NCBI GenBank assembly: GCA_944386755.1
Contig: CALXCF010000007.1
Location: 1,970 to 65,969 of the forward strand
DNA: 64,000 nt
Source: an uncultured Clostridia bacterium
GTDB taxonomy: Bacteria > Bacillota > Clostridia > TANB77 > CAG-508
Reading direction: 5' to 3'
The first letter of the stretch is position 1. Each line of letters begins with the position of its first letter. A model generated the notes under the pieces. It did no database searches. It saw only the letters and a list, made by a program, of their open reading frames with translations, and was not told where the DNA came from. The position numbers were made by a program, and so were the translations under genes. Below, piece by piece: positions 15,805 through 19,575 of the stretch.

Positions 15805-15888
15805 TTGTCAAGGGACTTTTCTTTACCCTAGGGACTTTCCACTCTGCATAAAGAGTTTCCCTTCCCCTTGTGAATAACTGATTCGCCC
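15805..15888 (-). repeat. GBX-RP element copy 4 (subfamily B, degenerate stem)
   Basis: ttgtcaagggacttttctttaccctagggactttccactctgcataaagagtttcccttccccttgtgaataactgattcgccc. Confidence 0.85.
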
Positions 15889-15922
15889 TTGCTTTTTTAT
15901 TCTTTTTTTGTTGTACAATTAA

Positions 15923-16408
15923 TTATACTATTTCTTCTACTTTTTTTCCTCTTTTTTTAGCAACTTGTTCTATTGTTTGCATTGATTTTAATCCTTCTAA
16001 TGTAGCATATACAACATTTCTTGGATTGTTTGTTCCTATAACTTTTGTTCTAATGTTTCTGTATCCAGCAAGTTCCATAACTGGTCTAACGCTTCCTCCT
16101 GCGATAATTCCAGTACCTACTGCTGCTGGTTTTAACATAACTTTTGCACTTCCAAACTTTCCTACATATTCATGTGGTACTGTTGTGTCAACTATTGGTA
16201 CTTCTACTAAGTTCTTTTTAGCTTCTTGGATTGCTTTTTTAATAGCATCTGGAACTTCTGCAGCTTTACCATTTCCAACTCCAACATGACCATTTTCGTC
16301 ACCAACTACAACTACTGCGCTGAAACGGAATGTTCTTCCTCCTTTTACAACTTTTGCAACTCTGTTGATGGCAACTACTTTTTCTTTTAATTCTCTTTTA
16401 TCTTCCAT
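15923..16408 (-). CDS. rpsE: 30S ribosomal protein S5
   Basis: ..[27 protein letters not shown].. Confidence 0.95.
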
Positions 16409-16431
16409 TGGTTTTTGTTTTCCCTCCTAAC

Positions 16432-16791
16432 TTAAAATTCTAAACCGCCTTCTCTTGCAGCTTCTGCTAATTCTTTTACAACTCCGTGATATATGTATCC
16501 ACCACGATCAAATACAACAGATTTGATATTTTTTTCCATTGCTCTTTTTGCAATTAATGCTCCAACTTCTTTAGCTGCTGCTTTATTTGAATGTTTAGTT
16601 TTGATTTCTTTATCTAATGTTGATGCTTGTGCTAAAGTTTTTCCTGCTACGTCATCAATTACTTGTACATATATATTGCTGTTGCTTCTATATACACATA
16701 GTCTTGGTCTTTCAGCAGTTCCAGATATTTTTCTTCTAACACGAATATGTCTTCTTGTTCTTTCCATTTTTCTATCTGTTTTCTTAACCAT
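16432..16791 (-). CDS. rplR: 50S ribosomal protein L18
   Basis: ..[35 protein letters not shown].. Confidence 0.95.
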
Positions 16792-16867
16792 TTTTAATTA
16801 CTCCTTTCTAAAAATTGAGCTATACTATTTATTTATAATAAAATTTTTATTTTTAATTATAATTTGA

Positions 16868-16909
16868 ATTTTGATTCAAAATGTGCATATTGCCGTTTTC
16901 AATCAAAAT
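16868..16909 (+). repeat. LH element remnant (right-arm-like) abutting the rplF stop
   Basis: attttgattcaaaatgtgcatattgccgttttcaatcaaaat resembles cgaaaatgtgcagattgctgctttcaatc of LH copies A and B. Confidence 0.6.
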
Positions 16910-16913
16910 TAAT

Positions 16914-17450
16914 TTATTTACCTGTTTTACCTTCCTTACGTCTAATAACTTCATCAGCATATTTAATACCTTTACCTCTATAAACTTCAGGTGGTCTTTT
17001 TGTTCTGATAACAGCTGCTGTTTGACCAACTAATTCTTTATCAATACCATTAACTATTATAGTATTTGCATTAGGTACATCAAAGCTGATTCCTTCAGGT
17101 GCTTCGAATATAACTGGATGTGAATATCCTAATGTTAAATTTAAGTTATTTCCTTGTTTTACAACTCTATATCCAACACCATTGATTTGTAATTCTTTGC
17201 TATAACCAGTTGTTACACCTATAATCATGTTTTGAATTAATGTTCTTGTTAAACCGTGTAAACTTTTGTTAGCTGGTTCGTCATTTATTCTTTTTAATGT
17301 TATAACATTTTCATTCATTTCCATTGTTATGTTTTTATGAATGTTTCTTTCTAATGTTCCTTTAGGTCCTGTTACAGTAATGTGTTGTCCATCTATTTTT
17401 ACTTGTACTTCTGCTGGTACTGTTATAGGTTTGTTTCCTATTCTTGACAT
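16914..17450 (-). CDS. rplF: 50S ribosomal protein L6
   Basis: MSRIGNKPITVPAEVQVKIDG... The ORF-track extension is repeat-encoded. Confidence 0.95.
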   Translation of the reverse strand: MSRIGNKPITVPAEVQVKIDGQHITVTGPKGTLERNIHKNITMEMNENVITLKRINDEPANKSLHGLTRTLIQNMIIGVTTGYSKELQINGVGYRVVKQGNNLNLTLGYSHPVIFEAPEGISFDVPNANTIIVNGIDKELVGQTAAVIRTKRPPEVYRGKGIKYADEVIRRKEGKTGK

Positions 17451-17472
17451 TTTAGTTTTCCCTCCTTCTTGG

Positions 17473-17556
17473 TTGACAAGGGACACTCTTTTACCCTAGG
17501 GACTTTCCACTCTGCTTAAAGAGTGTCCCTTCCCCGTATGAATAACTGATTCGCCC
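17473..17556 (-). repeat. GBX-RP element copy 5a (subfamily B, perfect 12-bp stem)
   Basis: ttgacaagggacactcttttaccctagggactttccactctgcttaaagagtgtcccttccccgtatgaataactgattcgccc. Confidence 0.9.
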
Positions 17557-17576
17557 TTGTTTTTATTTTCTTTTTT

Positions 17577-17630
17577 CACTTCCACTTAGTTTAAGGAATG
17601 TCCCCTCCCCGCGTGAATAGGTGATTGCCC
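17577..17630 (-). repeat. GBX-RP element copy 5b (distal half only, subfamily A)
   Basis: cacttccacttagtttaaggaatgtcccctccccgcgtgaataggtgattgccc, lying 20 nt from copy 5a. Confidence 0.8.
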
Positions 17631-17658
17631 TGCAATCTTATTTCTTCTATATTTATAA

Positions 17659-18057
17659 TTACCAAACGTAAGCTAATACTTCTCCACCAATTCCTAAAGC
17701 TCTTGCTTCTTTATCTGTTTTTAATCCTTTTGATGTAGAAATAATTGCTACTCCTAATCCATTTAATACTCTTGGTAATTCTTCTTTTGAAGCATATACT
17801 CTTAATCCTGGTTTACTGATTCTTTTTAAACCATCAATTACTCTTGTTCCTTTTTCATCATATTTTAATGTTATTCTGATAATACCTTGTGTATCATCTT
17901 TTATTTCTTCAAAAGATTTTATATATCCTTCTTTATATAATATTTCAGCTATTCCTAATTTCATATTTGATGCTGGAATATCAACTGTTTTATGTTTTGA
18001 ACTATTTGCATTTCTAATTCTTGTTAACATATCTGCAATTGGATCTGTAGTATTCAT
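17659..18057 (-). CDS. rpsH: 30S ribosomal protein S8
   Basis: ..[26 protein letters not shown].. Confidence 0.95.
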
Positions 18058-18085
18058 TTAGTTACTAACCTCCTTTTCTTTCTTT

Positions 18086-18108
18086 TTGACAGGGTTAATG
18101 ATTCACCC
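18086..18108 (-). repeat. GBX-RP remnant retaining only both termini
   Basis: ttgacagggttaatgattcaccc equals the TTGACAGGG start joined to the TGATTC(G/A)CCC end of the full element. Confidence 0.65.
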
Positions 18109-18130
18109 TTTTTTTATTTTCATTAATTTG

Positions 18131-18259
18131 TTAAAACTGATTTAAAGTAGTGAGATGTGCATTTTTGTTATTTATTGCAAGCCGAAGGTGTACTATTGTA
18201 CATCGAGGTTTGAAATAAATAGCGAAAATGTGCAGATTGCTGCTTTTAATCTGTTTTAA
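18131..18259 (+). repeat. LH element copy B (129-nt imperfect hairpin abutting the rpsN stop)
   Basis: ttaaaactgatttaaagtagtgagatgtgca..gccgaaggtgtac-tatt-gtacatcgagg..tgtgcagattgctgcttttaatctgttttaa. Confidence 0.85.
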
Positions 18260-18445
18260 TTACCAGCTGGCTTTCTTAACCCCTGGAATCTCTCCCTTAT
18301 GAGCTAATTCTCTAAAACATACACGGCATATACCATATTTTCTAATATATGCATGTGGTCTACCACATAATTTACATCTATTATATTCTCTAGTTTTATA
18401 TTTTTGTGGTCTTGCTTGTTTTACTTTCATTGATTTTTTAGCCAT
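18260..18445 (-). CDS. rpsN: 30S ribosomal protein S14 type Z (zinc-binding)
   Basis: 61 aa, CKLCGR..CRVCFR. Confidence 0.95.
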
Positions 18446-18483
18446 AGTTTACTCCTTTCTTATCACAACTATATTATGTTTGC

Positions 18484-18606
18484 AAAATTAATTTAAAACA
18501 AGTATAACTAGGCAGTCAAGCTAAAAAACCGGAATCGTACTTTGTGTACGATGAGGATTTTTTATGCGTAGACTAACGACGTTAGACGCAGTTTAAAATT
18601 AATTTT
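18484..18606 (+). repeat. LH-like long hairpin overlapping the rplE stop
   Basis: Arms aaaattaatttaaaac.. and ..gtttaaaattaatttt. The apex ccggaatcgtac-tttgt-gtacgatgagg has the same architecture as LH copies A and B. Confidence 0.7.
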
Positions 18607-19138
18607 TAAAAGGCATTCCTAACAACTTTAACAACTCTCTTGATTCTTCATCAGTTTTAGCTGTTGTTACGAATATAATATCCATACCTCTTAATTTGTC
18701 TACTTTATCATATTCTATCTCAGGGAATATTAATTGTTCTTTAACTCCCATTGAGTAGTTTCCTCTTCCATCAAATGAGTTATTAGAAACTCCTCTAAAG
18801 TCTCTTACTCTTGGAAGTGCAACATTAAATAATTTATATGCAAAGTCATACATTTTGTCTGCTCTTAAAGTTACTTTACATCCAATGTTTGCTCCTTCTC
18901 TTAGTTTGAATGCTGCAATTGATTTTTTTGCTTTTGTTATTACTGGTTTTTGACCTGTAATTTGAGCTAAATCATTCATTGCATTTTCTAATGCTTTAGG
19001 ATTTTCTTTTAAATCTCCTAAACCAATGTTTATAACGATTTTGTCAAGTTTTGGTACTTGCATAATTGATTTATAATTGAATTTTTTCATTAATGCTGGG
19101 ATTACTTCATTTACATATTGTTCTCTTAATTTTTCCAT
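18599..19138 (-). CDS. rplE: 50S ribosomal protein L5
   Basis: ..[36 protein letters not shown].. Confidence 0.95.
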
Positions 19139-19159
19139 TATTTAATTAATCCTCCTTCC

Positions 19160-19468
19160 TTATTTTAATTTTGCACCGCATTTTTTACATATACGAACTT
19201 TTTGATCTTTTTCTACGCTGTATCCTACTCTTGTAGCTTTTCCACATTTTGGGCATACAACATTTACTTTTGAAACTGGAATGCTACATTCTACTGGTAT
19301 TATTCCACTTTCTTCTCCTTGTCTTCTTGCTTTAACATGTTTTTTTCTTATATTTACGCCTTTTACTACTACTTTGTCTTCTTTTGGCATAACTTCTAAT
19401 ACTTCTCCTGTTTTACCTTTGTCATTTCCAGATAAAACTTGAACATTGTCGCCTTTTTTGATTCTCAT
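19160..19468 (-). CDS. rplX: 50S ribosomal protein L24 (with CxxC..CxxC)
   Basis: MRIKKGDNVQVLSGNDKGKTGEVL.., CPKCG..CKKCG. Confidence 0.95.
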   Translation of the reverse strand: MRIKKGDNVQVLSGNDKGKTGEVLEVMPKEDKVVVKGVNIRKKHVKARRQGEESGIIPVECSIPVSKVNVVCPKCGKATRVGYSVEKDQKVRICKKCGAKLK

Positions 19469-19491
19469 TTTAGAGTTTTCCCTCCTTCTTT

Positions 19492-19575
19492 TTGACAAGG
19501 GACACTCTTTTACCCTAGGGACTTTCCACTCTGCTTAAAGAGTTTCCCTTCCCCGTATGAATAACTGATTCGCCC
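19492..19575 (-). repeat. GBX-RP element copy 7 (subfamily B)
   Basis: ttgacaagggacactcttttaccctagggactttccactctgcttaaagagtttcccttccccgtatgaataactgattcgccc. Confidence 0.9.

What the first reader, a model, noticed from the sequence alone, without database searches (positions are those of the whole stretch)
15805..19575. Two subfamilies with compensatory stems, a tandem mixed-subfamily insertion and a 23-nt terminal remnant argue for repeated mobility under structural constraint
Subfamily A (copies 1, 10, 11, 12) has the main stem GGGGACACACCTTTA / TTAAGGAATGTCCCC and the inner hairpin ACC-tctt/tttt-GGT. Subfamily B (15805, 17473, 19492) has GGGACACTCTTT / AAAGAGTGTCCC, perfect in 17473-17556, and the inner palindrome CCCTAGGG at the same position. 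The distal GAAT-N5-ATTC hairpin keeps its stem while the loop changes (aggtg versus aactg). So the sequence differs but the fold is kept. At the rpsH-rplF junction a complete B copy (17473-17556) is followed 20 nt later by the distal half of an A copy (17577-17630), which implies two independent insertions at one junction. Upstream of rpsH only TTGACAGGG + TAATGATTCACCC (18086-18108) remains. That is, both element termini are joined, which looks like an internal deletion or an excision footprint.
Basis: seen in the sequence. Interest (0 to 1): 0.7.

Follow-up and report, generated by a model that had tools for sequence, protein, structure and literature searches.

The report
Mobile hairpin repeats between ribosomal-protein genes
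A ~100-base hairpin-forming repeat has colonised more than a dozen gene junctions of the ribosomal-protein operon of an uncultured gut Clostridium, always in the sense orientation just ahead of the next gene's ribosome-binding site, and its presence differs between strains of one species, so it behaves as a small mobile element inside one of the most conserved loci in bacteria.

Summary
The window holds 13 copies, one half copy and one 23-nt remnant of a ~98-nt repeat. All are on the mRNA-sense (minus) strand and all lie in spacers of the S10-spc-alpha operon. Ten conspecific metagenome loci (96-99.5% nt identity) show present, absent or swapped-subfamily states at 13 junctions. Related low-GC gut Clostridia MAGs add about 200 further copies, every one co-oriented with its flanking genes, with the stem ending 10-18 nt before the Shine-Dalgarno. 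Most sit in translation-machinery operons. The 13-bp main stem is supported by unbiased covariation. The distal GAAT/ATTC hairpin and the inner hairpin are not supported family-wide. The remnant is an internal-deletion derivative. The half+full arrangement is a recurrent composite spread by ectopic gene conversion, not simply two insertions. Individual copies drift at about the synonymous rate, and recent changes hit stem and loop equally. The constraint therefore acts on propagation, as in selfish elements. The arms GGGGACATTCC/GGTGTGTCCCC recur in REP/BIME-like arrays of Syntrophomonas and Peptococcaceae. No Rfam family, transposase or target-site duplication was found. Verdict: a new orientation-locked variant of MITE/REP-like intercistronic repeats, with the mobilisation mechanism unresolved.

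The parts
26333..26431 (-). Full copy (A-like, with a GGTCAT 5' module) in the 5' UTR of rpsJ. It lies downstream of the S10 promoter TTGACA-17-TATAAT at 26694-26666.
   Evidence: Covariance model 102.8 bits. Promoter scan. Sequence.
25885..25978 (-). Diverged copy in the rpsJ-rplC spacer. Its stem, GGGAUGUUUUUU/AAAAAGCGUCCC, is kept through compensatory changes.
   Evidence: Covariance model 37.1 bits, E=6e-6 with filters off. nhmmer missed it. The same copy is found in L009 and L010.
22281..22379 (-). Full copy, subfamily A, at the rpsS-rplV junction.
   Evidence: The junction is empty (18-27 nt) in six conspecific strains.
21806..21905 (-). Full copy, subfamily A, at the rplV-rpsC junction.
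   Evidence: The junction is empty (19 nt) in eight strains and holds a C' copy in L005.
20379..20477 (-). Full copy (A-like variant with GGGAC/GTCCCT ends) at the rpmC-rpsQ junction.
   Evidence: Other strains carry C, C' or a C-half+full composite at this junction.
19987..20083 (-). Full copy, subfamily C' (ACATATATT/AGATGTGT stem), at the rpsQ-rplN junction.
   Evidence: This junction holds an A copy in L002, L010, L005 and L004, and is empty in five strains.
19484..19581 (-). Full copy, subfamily B, at the rplN-rplX junction.
   Evidence: This junction holds an A copy in L002 and L010, and is empty in L005, L003 and L007.
18087..18109 (-). Internal-deletion remnant in the rpsN-rpsH spacer. 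In mRNA sense it joins the 5' end (AAGGGTGAATCA) to the 3' end (CCCTGTCAAAAAG).
   Evidence: Comparison with a full copy (L072), intermediate deletions (L002, L010, L005, L097) and element-free 35-40-nt spacers (L003, L030, L032).
17576..17630 (-). 5' half of a subfamily A copy (model positions 8-62). It ends in the apical-loop motif AGTGGAAGTGA, and the leader of the next copy follows directly.
   Evidence: nhmmer E=5e-14. L010 and L003 have the intact A copy at this position.
17465..17562 (-). Full copy, subfamily B, with a perfect 12-bp stem, at the rpsH-rplF junction.
15797..15894 (-). Full copy, subfamily B, with a degenerating stem (GGGAAAC.../...AAAAGTCCC), at the rpsE-rplO junction.
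   Evidence: The nearly identical strain L009 carries an A copy here although rpsE and rplO are 100% identical between the two.
11598..11694 (-). Full copy (variant with a perfect 13-bp stem, ATTCCTT/AAGGAGT) at the infA-rpmJ junction.
10178..10276 (-). Full copy at the rpsK-rpsD junction.
   Evidence: The junction is empty (23-31 nt) in eight strains.
8372..8470 (-). Full copy, subfamily A, at the rpoA-rplQ junction.
   Evidence: Four strains have the empty allele TAA|AGGAGGGAAATAAG, and five strains have a C copy.

Best explanation
These are copies of a non-autonomous, hairpin-forming mobile repeat of about 98 nt, plus a junction-specific A/T-rich leader of 12-30 nt. I call it a MITE/REP-like 'intercistronic element'. 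It has repeatedly entered the short spacers between co-transcribed genes.

**Shown**
- Copies are gained, swapped between subfamilies and lost within one species.
- Every copy lies in the sense orientation between the upstream stop codon and the downstream Shine-Dalgarno, with the stem ending 10-18 nt before the SD.
- The 13-bp main stem, GGGGACAUUCCUU/AAGGUGUGUCCCC, carries a conserved U-G wobble and a U.U mismatch and is maintained by compensatory change across subfamilies.
- Resident copies exchange sequence by ectopic gene conversion. This produces half+full composites and subfamily swaps.
- Copies decay by internal deletion.
- Individual copies drift at about the synonymous rate, and recent changes hit stem and loop columns equally.

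**Inferred**
- The stem is needed for propagation rather than for a host function of each copy. Most likely it is recognised as a single-strand (top-strand) hairpin by an enzyme supplied in trans, as in REP/RAYT or IS200/IS605-type systems.
- The same arms form REP/BIME-like arrays, in either orientation, in distant Clostridia.
- The strict sense orientation and the stop-to-SD position would then come from strand-specific insertion combined with selection against anything that disturbs expression of essential genes.
- Each copy is co-transcribed and places a stable stem-loop (about -30 kcal/mol) flanked by A-rich single strands into the polycistronic mRNA. This uncouples neighbouring cistrons and may act as a processing or 5'-stabiliser module, but it is dispensable.
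For: **Copies in the window.** There are 12 copies by HMM and 13 by covariance model. All are on the minus strand and all are in the operon. Filled co-directional junctions number 9 of 24 inside the operon against 0 of 27 elsewhere in the window (p=4e-4).

**Occupancy.** The matrix across 11 conspecific loci shows strain-specific gain and loss at 13 operon junctions plus the region upstream of rpsJ, and different subfamilies at the same junction.

**Wider distribution.** 225 full-length copies were collected from the held loci of low-GC Clostridia MAGs and strains, and all those placed between mapped genes are co-oriented with them.
- 13 'hot' operon junctions carry copies.
- Copies also lie at nusG-rplK, upstream of rpoB, rpsL-rpsG-fusA, rpsB-tsf, rpmI-rplT, trmD-rplS, ylxM-ffh and rbfA-nrnA, among other sites. 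These gene names were read by eye from the translations, not from a domain search.

**Structure.**
- Main-stem covariation is supported.
- The diverged copy at 25885 keeps its stem through compensatory changes.
- The sense strand folds better than the antisense strand in 126 of 142 copies.

**Turnover.**
- Gene-conversion block in composites.
- Deletion series for the remnant.

**Neutral drift of individual copies.**
- Core divergence is 2.8% against 3.4% at 4-fold sites.
- Segregating changes number 11 over 26 stem columns against 31 over 76 unpaired columns.

**Related arrays.** The arms are conserved in Syntrophomonas, Peptococcaceae and Desulfocucumis in nested or tandem (L)n(R)n arrays, next to ordinary genes and in both orientations.

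**No competing annotation.** There is no Rfam match and no promoter or terminator signature inside the copies.
Against: - No transposase or autonomous parent was found. The only test was tblastn with IS200 TnpA and RAYT sequences recalled from memory, against about 1.2 Mb of held DNA. That is a weak test.
- No consistent target-site duplication or defined 5' terminus was seen. The stem arms are internal, not terminal.
- Orientation is 100% sense among all copies placed between mapped genes. A purely DNA-level element would not obviously achieve this.
- Copies are concentrated in translation-machinery operons, and several unpaired positions are more than 90% conserved across paralogues (TCA, the first G-tract, the invariant A, AGUGGA, UGWCA). 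Both facts could equally indicate a host RNA function.
- All copies in the window lie in one operon, so orientation relative to transcription and to replication cannot be separated.
Genome-wide proportions are therefore unknown.
Confidence: 0.6

Rival explanations
1. The element is a host-beneficial cis-acting RNA module. The sense-strand stem-loop, with its conserved U-G/U.U irregularity, G-tract and AGUGGA loop, would be a binding or cleavage site for a trans-acting protein or RNase. Candidates are RNase Y or RNase III processing, a 5' stabiliser against RNase J1, or an autoregulatory ribosomal protein. Such a factor would coordinate expression of translation-machinery cistrons, and mobility would only be the means by which the module spread.
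For: - Orientation is 100% sense and the distance to the SD is fixed at 10-18 nt.
- Copies are enriched in ribosomal-protein, rpoB, fusA, tsf and ffh operons.
- Unpaired positions are conserved across diverged paralogues.
- The sense strand is more stable than the antisense strand.
- The same 13 operon junctions are hot across species.
- In the commonest subfamily of other species, an SD-like AAAAGGAGA sits at a fixed position 5' of the stem (60 of 83 copies). This resembles known Bacillus 5' stabilisers (STAB-SD, the aprE leader), a comparison that rests on my own knowledge.
Against: - Presence, absence and subfamily vary among strains of one species, so no single copy is required.
- Orthologous copies drift at about the 4-fold-site rate, and recent substitutions do not avoid the stem.
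- Copies decay by deletion.
- The same arms occur in both orientations next to unrelated genes in other Clostridia.
- There is no match to any Rfam ribosomal-protein leader.
Confidence: 0.25
2. There is no transposition at all. On this view the sequences are old spacer DNA that spreads and is homogenised only by recombination. That would include ectopic gene conversion between junctions sharing stop-codon/A-rich and SD (AAGGAGGGAAAAC) microhomology, and allelic exchange between strains. Empty sites would then be deletions.
For: - The identical block in composites ends inside shared homology on both sides.
- No target-site duplication, no defined 5' end and no transposase were found.
- The B/A swap between WIN and L009 has 100% identical flanking genes.
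- Deletion derivatives are observed.
- Alleles, including their junction-specific leaders, are shared between distant strains.
Against: - Empty alleles are minimal spacers with no scar, for example TAA|AGGAGGG.
- Copies occur in at least 12 unlinked operons.
- The arm motif is shared with unrelated genera of 41-56% GC. That requires real movement into sites with no prior homology.
- 'Cold' junctions have equally good SD sequences.
Confidence: 0.1
3. The element is a MIRU-like translated bridge, or a small peptide gene. On this view it carries a mini-ORF that keeps ribosomes on the mRNA and couples translation of neighbouring cistrons.
For: By my reading of the spacer sequences and the alignment, some copies of the commonest subfamily have SD-like AAAAGGAGA, then about 12 nt, then an ATG that opens a 26-codon frame. 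That frame ends at the TGA of the conserved CCCCTGACA, 10-15 nt before the next SD. The fixed position of the SD-like motif was counted.
Against: - The ATG is absent from most copies, including nearly all copies in the window.
- One-nucleotide indels (AAGG/AAAGG, CCC-AAG/CCCAGAG) are common, so the frame is not conserved.
- Many copies have TGTCA instead of TGACA.
- Stop codons occur in all frames of subfamily A.
Confidence: 0.03

Closest known systems
REP / BIME and REPIN elements mobilised by RAYT (Y1 HUH) transposases, in Enterobacteria and Pseudomonas
   Same: - Short imperfect palindromes with conserved mismatches.
- Extragenic and often located inside operons.
- Hundreds of diverged copies.
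- No terminal inverted repeats and no target-site duplication.
- Mosaic arrays. The class-2 (L)n(R)n clusters in Syntrophomonas and relatives look BIME-like.
- Propagation-level selection on the hairpin.
- Co-transcribed hairpins that can affect mRNA stability.
   Different: - No RAYT gene was found.
- There is no GTAG-like conserved 5' tetranucleotide.
- The unit is longer (about 98 nt, with a 5' module and a conserved loop motif).
- Orientation is 100% sense and the position relative to the SD is fixed.
- Copies are strongly concentrated in translation-machinery operons of a Firmicutes lineage.
Co-transcribed bacterial MITEs: Correia/NEMIS (Neisseria), ERIC/IRU (Enterobacteria, Yersinia), RUP/BOX/SPRITE (S. 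pneumoniae), bcr1 (B. cereus group)
   Same: - Size of 100-160 nt.
- Intergenic location.
- Strain-polymorphic insertions.
- Subfamilies and mosaic forms.
- They fold into RNA hairpins within mRNAs.
   Different: - Those elements have terminal inverted repeats and defined duplications (TA, TTTAT) and insert in both orientations.
- Here the inverted arms are internal, no duplication is seen, only one orientation occurs, and the element always lies between the stop codon and the SD.
MIRU (mycobacterial interspersed repetitive units)
   Same: They lie in intercistronic spacers of operons, in the same orientation as the flanking genes, and vary between strains.
   Different: - MIRUs are 40-100-bp tandem direct repeats. 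They carry small ORFs that overlap the neighbouring stop and start codons.
- Here there is no conserved ORF and no such overlap, and the unit is a hairpin rather than a tandem array.
IS200/IS605-derived palindrome-associated elements (PATEs)
   Same: They show strand-specific behaviour, use hairpins as recognition elements, and lack inverted terminal repeats and target duplications.
   Different: - PATEs carry two subterminal hairpins (left and right end) and insert 3' of a fixed tetra- or pentanucleotide.
- Here there is one main hairpin and no recognisable target motif.
Autoregulatory ribosomal-protein leaders (Rfam L10, L20, S4, S15 and similar)
   Same: They are structured RNA upstream of ribosomal-protein cistrons, in the sense orientation and close to the SD.
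   Different: - Each leader is specific to one gene and is stably inherited.
- This is one repeated sequence in front of more than 20 different genes, it is polymorphic within a species, and it has no Rfam match.

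Membership tests
MITE (classical, transposase-derived) | Terminal inverted repeats at the very ends of the element | tested here: not met
   The 13-nt inverted arms are internal. 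At least 35 conserved nt lie 5' of the left arm and 6-10 nt lie 3' of the right arm.
MITE (classical, transposase-derived) | Target-site duplication of fixed length flanking each copy | tested here: inconclusive
   Comparing filled and empty alleles at 8 junctions gives no consistent duplication. The A-rich flanks make 1-4-nt duplications undecidable.
MITE (classical, transposase-derived) | Small (<300 bp), non-coding, multi-copy, with insertion polymorphism | tested here: met
   The unit is about 98 nt plus a leader. There are 13 copies in the window and 225 full copies across the held loci (window included). Occupancy is polymorphic among conspecific strains.
MITE (classical, transposase-derived) | A related autonomous IS with the same ends | not testable with these tools
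   Only 8-kb windows around matches are held, and none contains such an IS. There were no matches in IMG/VR.
REP/REPIN-RAYT system | Imperfect palindrome of about 20-40 nt forming a hairpin with conserved mismatches | tested here: met
   GGGGACATTCCTT/AAGGTGTGTCCCC has a T-G in 128 of 142 copies and a non-pairing position (T.T in the consensus) in 99 of 142. The same arms occur in distant genera.
REP/REPIN-RAYT system | A single-copy RAYT (Y1 transposase) gene flanked by the repeats | tested here: inconclusive
   tblastn with recalled IS200 TnpA and E. coli RAYT sequences against about 1.2 Mb of held DNA gave no hit below E=0.6. Whole genomes were not available.
REP/REPIN-RAYT system | Conserved tetranucleotide (GTAG/GGAG type) immediately 5' of the palindrome | tested here: inconclusive
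   Class 1 has an invariant A after a G-tract (GGGGA|GGGGAC). Class 2 often has TAATG before the arm. There is no GTAG.
MIRU-type intercistronic repeats | Small ORF through the repeat that overlaps the neighbouring stop and start codons | tested here: not met
   The start codon and reading frame are not conserved, and 1-nt indels are common.
MIRU-type intercistronic repeats | Located between genes of an operon, in the same direction as the genes | tested here: met
   All copies placed between mapped genes are co-oriented with them.
Rfam cis-regulatory RNAs, including ribosomal-protein leaders | Match to a curated covariance model | tested here: not met
   No hit at gathering thresholds over the whole window. 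At E<=5 over 15700-22500 there were only two spurious hits.
Rho-independent terminator / sigma-70 promoter | Stem followed by a U-tract, or -35/-10 hexamers with 16-18-nt spacing | tested here: not met
   The stem is followed by UGWCAAAAAG. On the antisense strand TTGACA has no -10 partner. The scan finds no site inside any copy.

The most novel reading that the evidence does not exclude
The element is a self-propagating cis-regulatory RNA module. Its irregular helix (the U-G/U.U motif plus the AGUGGA loop) would be recognised by a conserved Clostridial protein or RNase. By seeding itself in front of dozens of translation-machinery cistrons, it would have wired them into a common post-transcriptional control or processing scheme. 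In effect this would be a regulon built, and still being rebuilt within species, by a mobile RNA element. Alternatively, it could be the footprint of a new type of insertion system aimed at stop-to-SD junctions.
Probability: 0.15. Interest if true: 0.85.

Novelty: new variant of a known kind. Interest (0 to 1): 0.6.

Why it matters
Ribosomal-protein operons are usually treated as the most compact and stable loci in bacteria, and they are used as phylogenetic and strain markers. In this case their spacers are a playground for small structured insertions that differ between strains of one gut species.

- **Assembly and typing.** This matters for assembly, binning and strain typing of gut Clostridia.
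- **Operon biology.** The insertions break translational coupling at a dozen junctions of an essential operon without apparent harm, which is relevant to how operon expression is organised.
- **Mobile-element biology.** The system shows orientation-locked, junction-specific repeats whose palindromic core is shared across distant Clostridia.
- **A natural experiment.** Filled and empty alleles exist in otherwise near-identical operons. This offers a test of whether intercistronic hairpins alter mRNA processing and protein stoichiometry.

Tried and rejected
- **Rfam.** Searches at gathering thresholds and at E-value thresholds found nothing relevant.
- **Promoter or terminator.** This reading was rejected. 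No -10 partner accompanies the conserved TTGACA, and no U-tract follows the stem.
- **Distal and inner hairpins.** The distal GAAT/ATTC hairpin and the inner ACC/GGT hairpin were tested as conserved structure. Neither is supported family-wide (43.6% and 71.6% paired).
- **Pseudoknot.** A candidate pairing of GGTCAT (5') with ATGACC (apical loop) is 71.7% paired with a few double changes. I regard it as suggestive only.
- **Other structural readings.** I considered a K-turn and a G-quadruplex by eye and dropped both. The UGACA/UGUCA variation is incompatible with a K-turn, and there are too few G-tracts for a quadruplex.
- **Mini-ORF or peptide.** The reading frame is not conserved.
- **SD duplication as a target-site duplication.** The SD-like motif at the 5' end of the commonest subfamily continues into element-specific sequence. 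It does not match the local SD context, so it is element-borne.
- **SD quality as an explanation for hot versus cold junctions.** Cold junctions have equally good SD sequences.
- **Transposase search.** tblastn with recalled Y1 transposase sequences found nothing.
- **Phage origin.** IMG/VR gave no match.
- **Literature.** A search for the arm sequence returned only unrelated primer and NF-kB-site hits. Keyword searches found general reviews but no description of this element.

Full report
**Setting.** The window has about 30% GC. Between about 7.8 and 26.7 kb it carries the S10-spc-alpha ribosomal-protein operon on the minus strand. The gene order is rpsJ, rplC, rplD, rplW, rplB, rpsS, rplV, rpsC, rplP, rpmC, rpsQ, rplN, rplX, rplE, rpsN, rpsH, rplF, rplR, rpsE, rplO, secY, adk, map, infA, rpmJ, rpsM, rpsK, rpsD, rpoA, rplQ. 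I identified the genes by ORF coordinates and by Pfam-labelled genes on loci that encode the identical RpsH. A perfect TTGACA-17-TATAAT promoter lies at 26694-26666 on the minus strand, upstream of rpsJ.

**Observation check.**
- A profile built from the window's copies finds 11 full copies (E 1e-18 to 7e-29) and one half copy (E 5e-14). All are on the minus strand and all lie in operon spacers. Nothing else in the 64 kb matches, apart from the palindromic mirror images of the same sites.
- A covariance model built later from 142 copies scores the 11 full copies at 66-103 bits. It also finds a thirteenth, diverged copy at 25885-25978 in the rpsJ-rplC spacer. That copy's stem is kept through compensatory changes.
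- In mRNA sense the consensus reads: A/T-rich leader, then GGGCGAATCACYTATTCACGAGGGGA, GGGGACATTCCTTAA, a loop containing AGTGGAA, UAAAGGTGTGTCCCC, TGTCAAAAAG, and then the Shine-Dalgarno (SD) of the next gene.
- RNAfold gives the main stem in nearly every copy, with z-scores of -3 to -4.6 for intact copies.
- By a crude ORF count, 9 of 24 co-directional junctions inside the operon are filled, against 0 of 27 elsewhere in the window (Fisher p=4e-4).
- B copies are 87-96% identical to each other and 68-80% identical to A copies.

**Polymorphic occupancy within one species.** Looking up contigs that encode exactly the window's RpsH returned ten metagenome or MAG loci, L001-L010. Their operon genes are 95.9-99.5% identical to the window at the nucleotide level, so they are conspecific. 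Spacer lengths and element content differ at 13 operon junctions and in the region upstream of rpsJ.
- rpsH-rplF is 30 nt and empty in five strains, holds one intact A copy in two (133 and 137 nt), and holds a half-A plus full B or C composite in four (208-211 nt).
- rpoA-rplQ is the 14-nt TAA|AGGAGGGAAATAAG in four strains, carries an A copy in the window and L009, and carries a C copy in five strains.
- rplN-rplX carries B, A or nothing.
- rpsQ-rplN carries C', A or nothing.
- rplV-rpsC carries A, C' or nothing.
- The window and L009 are 99.5% identical overall and 100% identical in rpsE and rplO. Even so, the rpsE-rplO junction holds B in the window and A in L009.

Occupancy is polymorphic, and subfamilies are independent of location.

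**The remnant.** At rpsN-rpsH the window has AAAGGGTGAATCATTAACCCTGTCAAAAAG in mRNA sense.
- L072 has a full copy at exactly this position.
- L002, L010, L005 and L097 have a longer deletion derivative that retains more of the 3' arm.
- L003, L030 and L032 have 35-40-nt spacers without any of it.
- A second remnant of the same kind, CAAGGG|AGAGAGTGTCCCTTGACA, sits at rpsE-rplO in L003.

The remnant is therefore an internal-deletion derivative, not an ancestral spacer.

**The half+full arrangement.** The half A copy ends in the apical-loop motif AGTGGAAGTGA, and the leader of the next copy follows directly. The same architecture recurs at other junctions. A 5' partial copy (model positions up to about 62 or about 83) is followed by a full copy at rpmC-rpsQ, rplR-rpsE, rpsE-rplO, rpsK-rpsD and elsewhere. 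This accounts for 34 of 196 filled junction instances.

In L005 the composites at rpsH-rplF and rplR-rpsE are near-identical from GTGGAGATGA, inside the resident A copy, through the whole C copy and into AAGGAGGGAAAAC. That last block is an SD context shared by both junctions. In contrast, the A halves and the leaders are junction-specific. This is the signature of ectopic gene conversion between resident copies.

**Distribution beyond the species.** I made one scan of 185,579 species-representative genomes with the pattern GGGACAYTYYTT-N20-36-GTGTCCCYTGWC. By my own estimate about two chance hits would be expected. The hits fall into two classes.

*Class 1.* These are MAGs of 27-33% GC, labelled uncultured Clostridia, Clostridium sp., Eubacteriales or Bacillota, from chicken, mouse, human, rabbit and ruminant gut. 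They carry the full element.
- Together with the window and L001-L010, these loci gave 225 full-length copies, 179 of them unique.
- Every copy that lies between mapped genes is on the same strand as those genes.
- About 70% of these loci are the S10-spc-alpha operon.
- I recognised the flanking genes at the other sites by eye from their translations, not by a domain search. They include nusG-rplK, upstream of rpoB, rpsL-rpsG-fusA, rpsB-tsf, rpmI-rplT, trmD-rplS, ylxM-ffh, rbfA-nrnA and downstream of dxs, plus a few non-translation sites such as a Tad-type pilus operon, uppP and fabD.
- The stem ends 10-18 nt before the SD core in almost all copies.
- Across about 60 operon loci, the profile search found the same 13 junctions filled again and again, by different subfamilies. 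It found no copy at 17 other junctions, although those have equally good SD sequences. The more sensitive covariance model later found a diverged copy at one of these 17, rpsJ-rplC.

*Class 2.* These genomes have 41-56% GC and include Syntrophomonas, Syntrophomonadaceae, Peptococcaceae and Desulfocucumis.
- They share only the arms, GGGGACATTCC(TT) ... (AA)GGTGTGTCCCCTGAC, including the same T-G and T.T positions. The loops are unrelated.
- The arms are often arranged as nested or tandem (L)n(R)n arrays.
- They lie in intergenic DNA next to ordinary genes such as chemotaxis receptors and penicillin-binding proteins, and in both orientations relative to those genes.
- This looks like a REP/BIME-type family.

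The window itself also holds long hairpins closed by GGGGACG...CGTCCCC outside the operon. No copy was found in IMG/VR.

**Structure.** I aligned 142 copies, each less than 96% identical to the others, without reference to structure.
- The two highest mutual-information column pairs in the alignment are main-stem pairs: 37-100 (G-C 109, A-U 22) and 48-89 (C-G 109, U-A 23).
- Over the 13-pair stem, 90.7% of cells pair, 7 pairs show changes on both sides, and none of 500 shuffles reaches the observed pairing or covariation. Sliding the partner columns halves both values.
- Position 46-93 is U-G in 128 of 142 copies. Position 47-92 is unpaired in 99 copies (U.U in the consensus), U-A in 26 and A-U in 16.
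- The sense strand folds more stably than the antisense strand in 126 of 142 copies (mean difference 3.6 kcal/mol).
- The distal GAAT/ATTC hairpin is 43.6% paired family-wide. The inner ACC/GGT hairpin is 71.6% paired with almost no covariation.
- A possible pseudoknot, GGTCAT (5') with ATGACC (loop), is 71.7% paired with a few double changes.
- No Rfam family matches.

**Is each copy under selection?** Among conspecific strains, orthologous copies of the same type differ at 2.8% of core positions, against 3.4% at 4-fold sites of the operon genes. Within clusters at least 93% identical, segregating changes fall on stem columns (11 over 26) as often as on unpaired columns (31 over 76). Several copies visibly carry broken stems. 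Individual copies therefore drift, while the family keeps its stem. That is what is expected if the stem is needed for propagation, as in a mobile element, rather than for a host function at each site.

**Mechanism.** My preferred reading has four parts.
1. The repeat is non-autonomous, and its imperfect palindrome is the recognition element for an enzyme acting in trans, probably on one DNA strand. This would explain the conserved mismatches, the strand asymmetry, the absence of terminal inverted repeats and target duplications, and the REP/BIME-like relatives.
2. New copies survive only between a stop codon and an SD in the sense orientation, because everything else in these operons is essential.
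3. Once resident, copies are reshuffled by gene conversion and allelic recombination, and they are eroded by deletion.
4. Each copy is co-transcribed and inserts a stable stem-loop flanked by A-rich single strands. This abolishes close coupling of the neighbouring cistrons and could serve as a processing or 5'-stabiliser module.

Only polymorphism, orientation, position, covariation, gene conversion, deletion and neutral drift are shown. The enzyme, the single-strand mechanism and any RNA-level effect are inferred.

**Open problems for this reading.**
- No transposase was found. The only test used recalled query sequences against about 1.2 Mb.
- No target-site duplication or sharp 5' end was seen.
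- The 100% sense orientation, the concentration in translation operons and the conserved unpaired bases keep a host-function explanation alive. I put that at about 0.25.
- A pure recombination model (about 0.1) fails to explain scar-free empty sites, unlinked operons and the cross-genus arms.
- A translated mini-ORF is seen in some copies of the commonest subfamily, but neither the start codon nor the frame is conserved.

**Comparison and novelty.**
- The element works most like REP/REPIN elements and like co-transcribed MITEs (Correia, ERIC, RUP, bcr1). In position and orientation it resembles mycobacterial MIRUs.
- It fails or cannot be scored on the defining features of each. The inverted arms are not terminal, there is no duplication, no RAYT was found, and there is no overlapping ORF.
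- I found no description of it in the searchable literature. Background on these families rests on established knowledge and on the reviews those searches listed but which I did not open (PMC2229807, PMC2817692, PMC10969869).
- I rate it a new variant of a known kind. The unusual points are the absolute orientation lock, the fixed stop-to-SD placement, the preference for translation-machinery operons, turnover at the strain level within an essential operon, and a palindromic core shared across distant Clostridia.

Noticed in passing
window 18134-18256 and 10787-10909 (minus strand); L029, L026 and L120 rpsN-rpsH spacers: A second, unrelated insert family. It is a ~125-nt long imperfect hairpin (arms ...TGCACATTTT / AAAATGCACA..., about -26 kcal/mol) in the rpsN-rpsH and rpsM-rpsK spacers. 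It is polymorphic among strains. In other species up to three tandem or nested copies stretch the spacer to 396 nt.
   Followed up: partly
window 18446-18598 (rplE-rpsN spacer): This spacer is 153 nt in the window and L009 but 49-51 nt in the other strains. The extra DNA carries a terminator-like hairpin (ATCGTACACAAAGTACGAT plus a T-run, 18534-18552) and a promoter-like TTGACT-18-TAAATT, all inside the spc operon.
   Followed up: partly
window 23633-24182 (rplW-rplB spacer); L002 4174-4383: A ~100-aa, highly charged ORF (MNNKEENRDQQQEE...) sits between rplW and rplB. In other conspecific strains it is replaced by an unrelated 69-aa charged ORF with no Pfam hit. This is a variable small gene inside the S10 operon.
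   Followed up: no
L097, L068, L098, L027, L029 and L026 (rpsH-rplF spacers): In several related genomes the rpsH-rplF spacer holds 300-520-nt inserts, at least some of which appear to open small ORFs. In L097 this occurs in a strain with 100% identical RpsH.
   Followed up: no
window 47104-47189, 50143-50192, 53293-53381; also 1518-1571, 4535-4570, 26724-26780, 28276-28329: GGGGACR is ten-fold over-represented in the window. Outside the operon it occurs as inverted GGGGACG...CGTCCCC pairs closing long hairpins, including a 22-bp perfect stem (GGGGACGTTCCTAAAAATCCCT). It also occurs in the loops of terminator-like hairpins at gene ends. The same arm motif seems to be reused by other palindromic families in this genome.
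   Followed up: partly
L013-L119, class-2 loci (e.g. L018 2-130, L054 7214-7557, L116 3244-3932): Syntrophomonas, Peptococcaceae, Desulfocucumis and other Bacillota of 41-56% GC carry nested or tandem arrays of the same arms, (GGGGACATTCC)n...(GGTGTGTCCCC)n, with unrelated loops. They lie next to ordinary genes and in both orientations. This looks like an undescribed REP/BIME-like family.
   Followed up: partly
class-1 loci of other species (e.g. L055 3699-3796, L026 7433-7532, L113): The commonest subfamily has an SD-like AAAAGGAGA at a fixed position about 20 nt 5' of its GGTCA motif (60 of 83 copies). In some copies an ATG follows, opening a 26-codon frame that ends at the TGA of CCCCTGACA. 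Neither the ATG nor the frame is conserved.
   Followed up: partly
window 15783-15922 (rpsE-rplO): There is no rpmD (L30) gene between rpsE and rplO in the window or in any related locus. The junction where it normally lies is one of the most frequently occupied by the element (27 of 35 loci).
   Followed up: no
window 46277-46340, 51411-51474, 56070-56133: Three copies of a 64-nt repeat with an AAAAATTGGT...ACCAATTTTT stem around a conserved CCCCCTTTTAAGGATATCC loop. They resemble bidirectional terminators and form another small repeat family.
   Followed up: no
window 41148-41651: A 21-nt periodic repeat, with units of 42, 63 and 126 nt, lies inside the 233-aa ORF at 40976-41677 (minus strand).
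   Followed up: no
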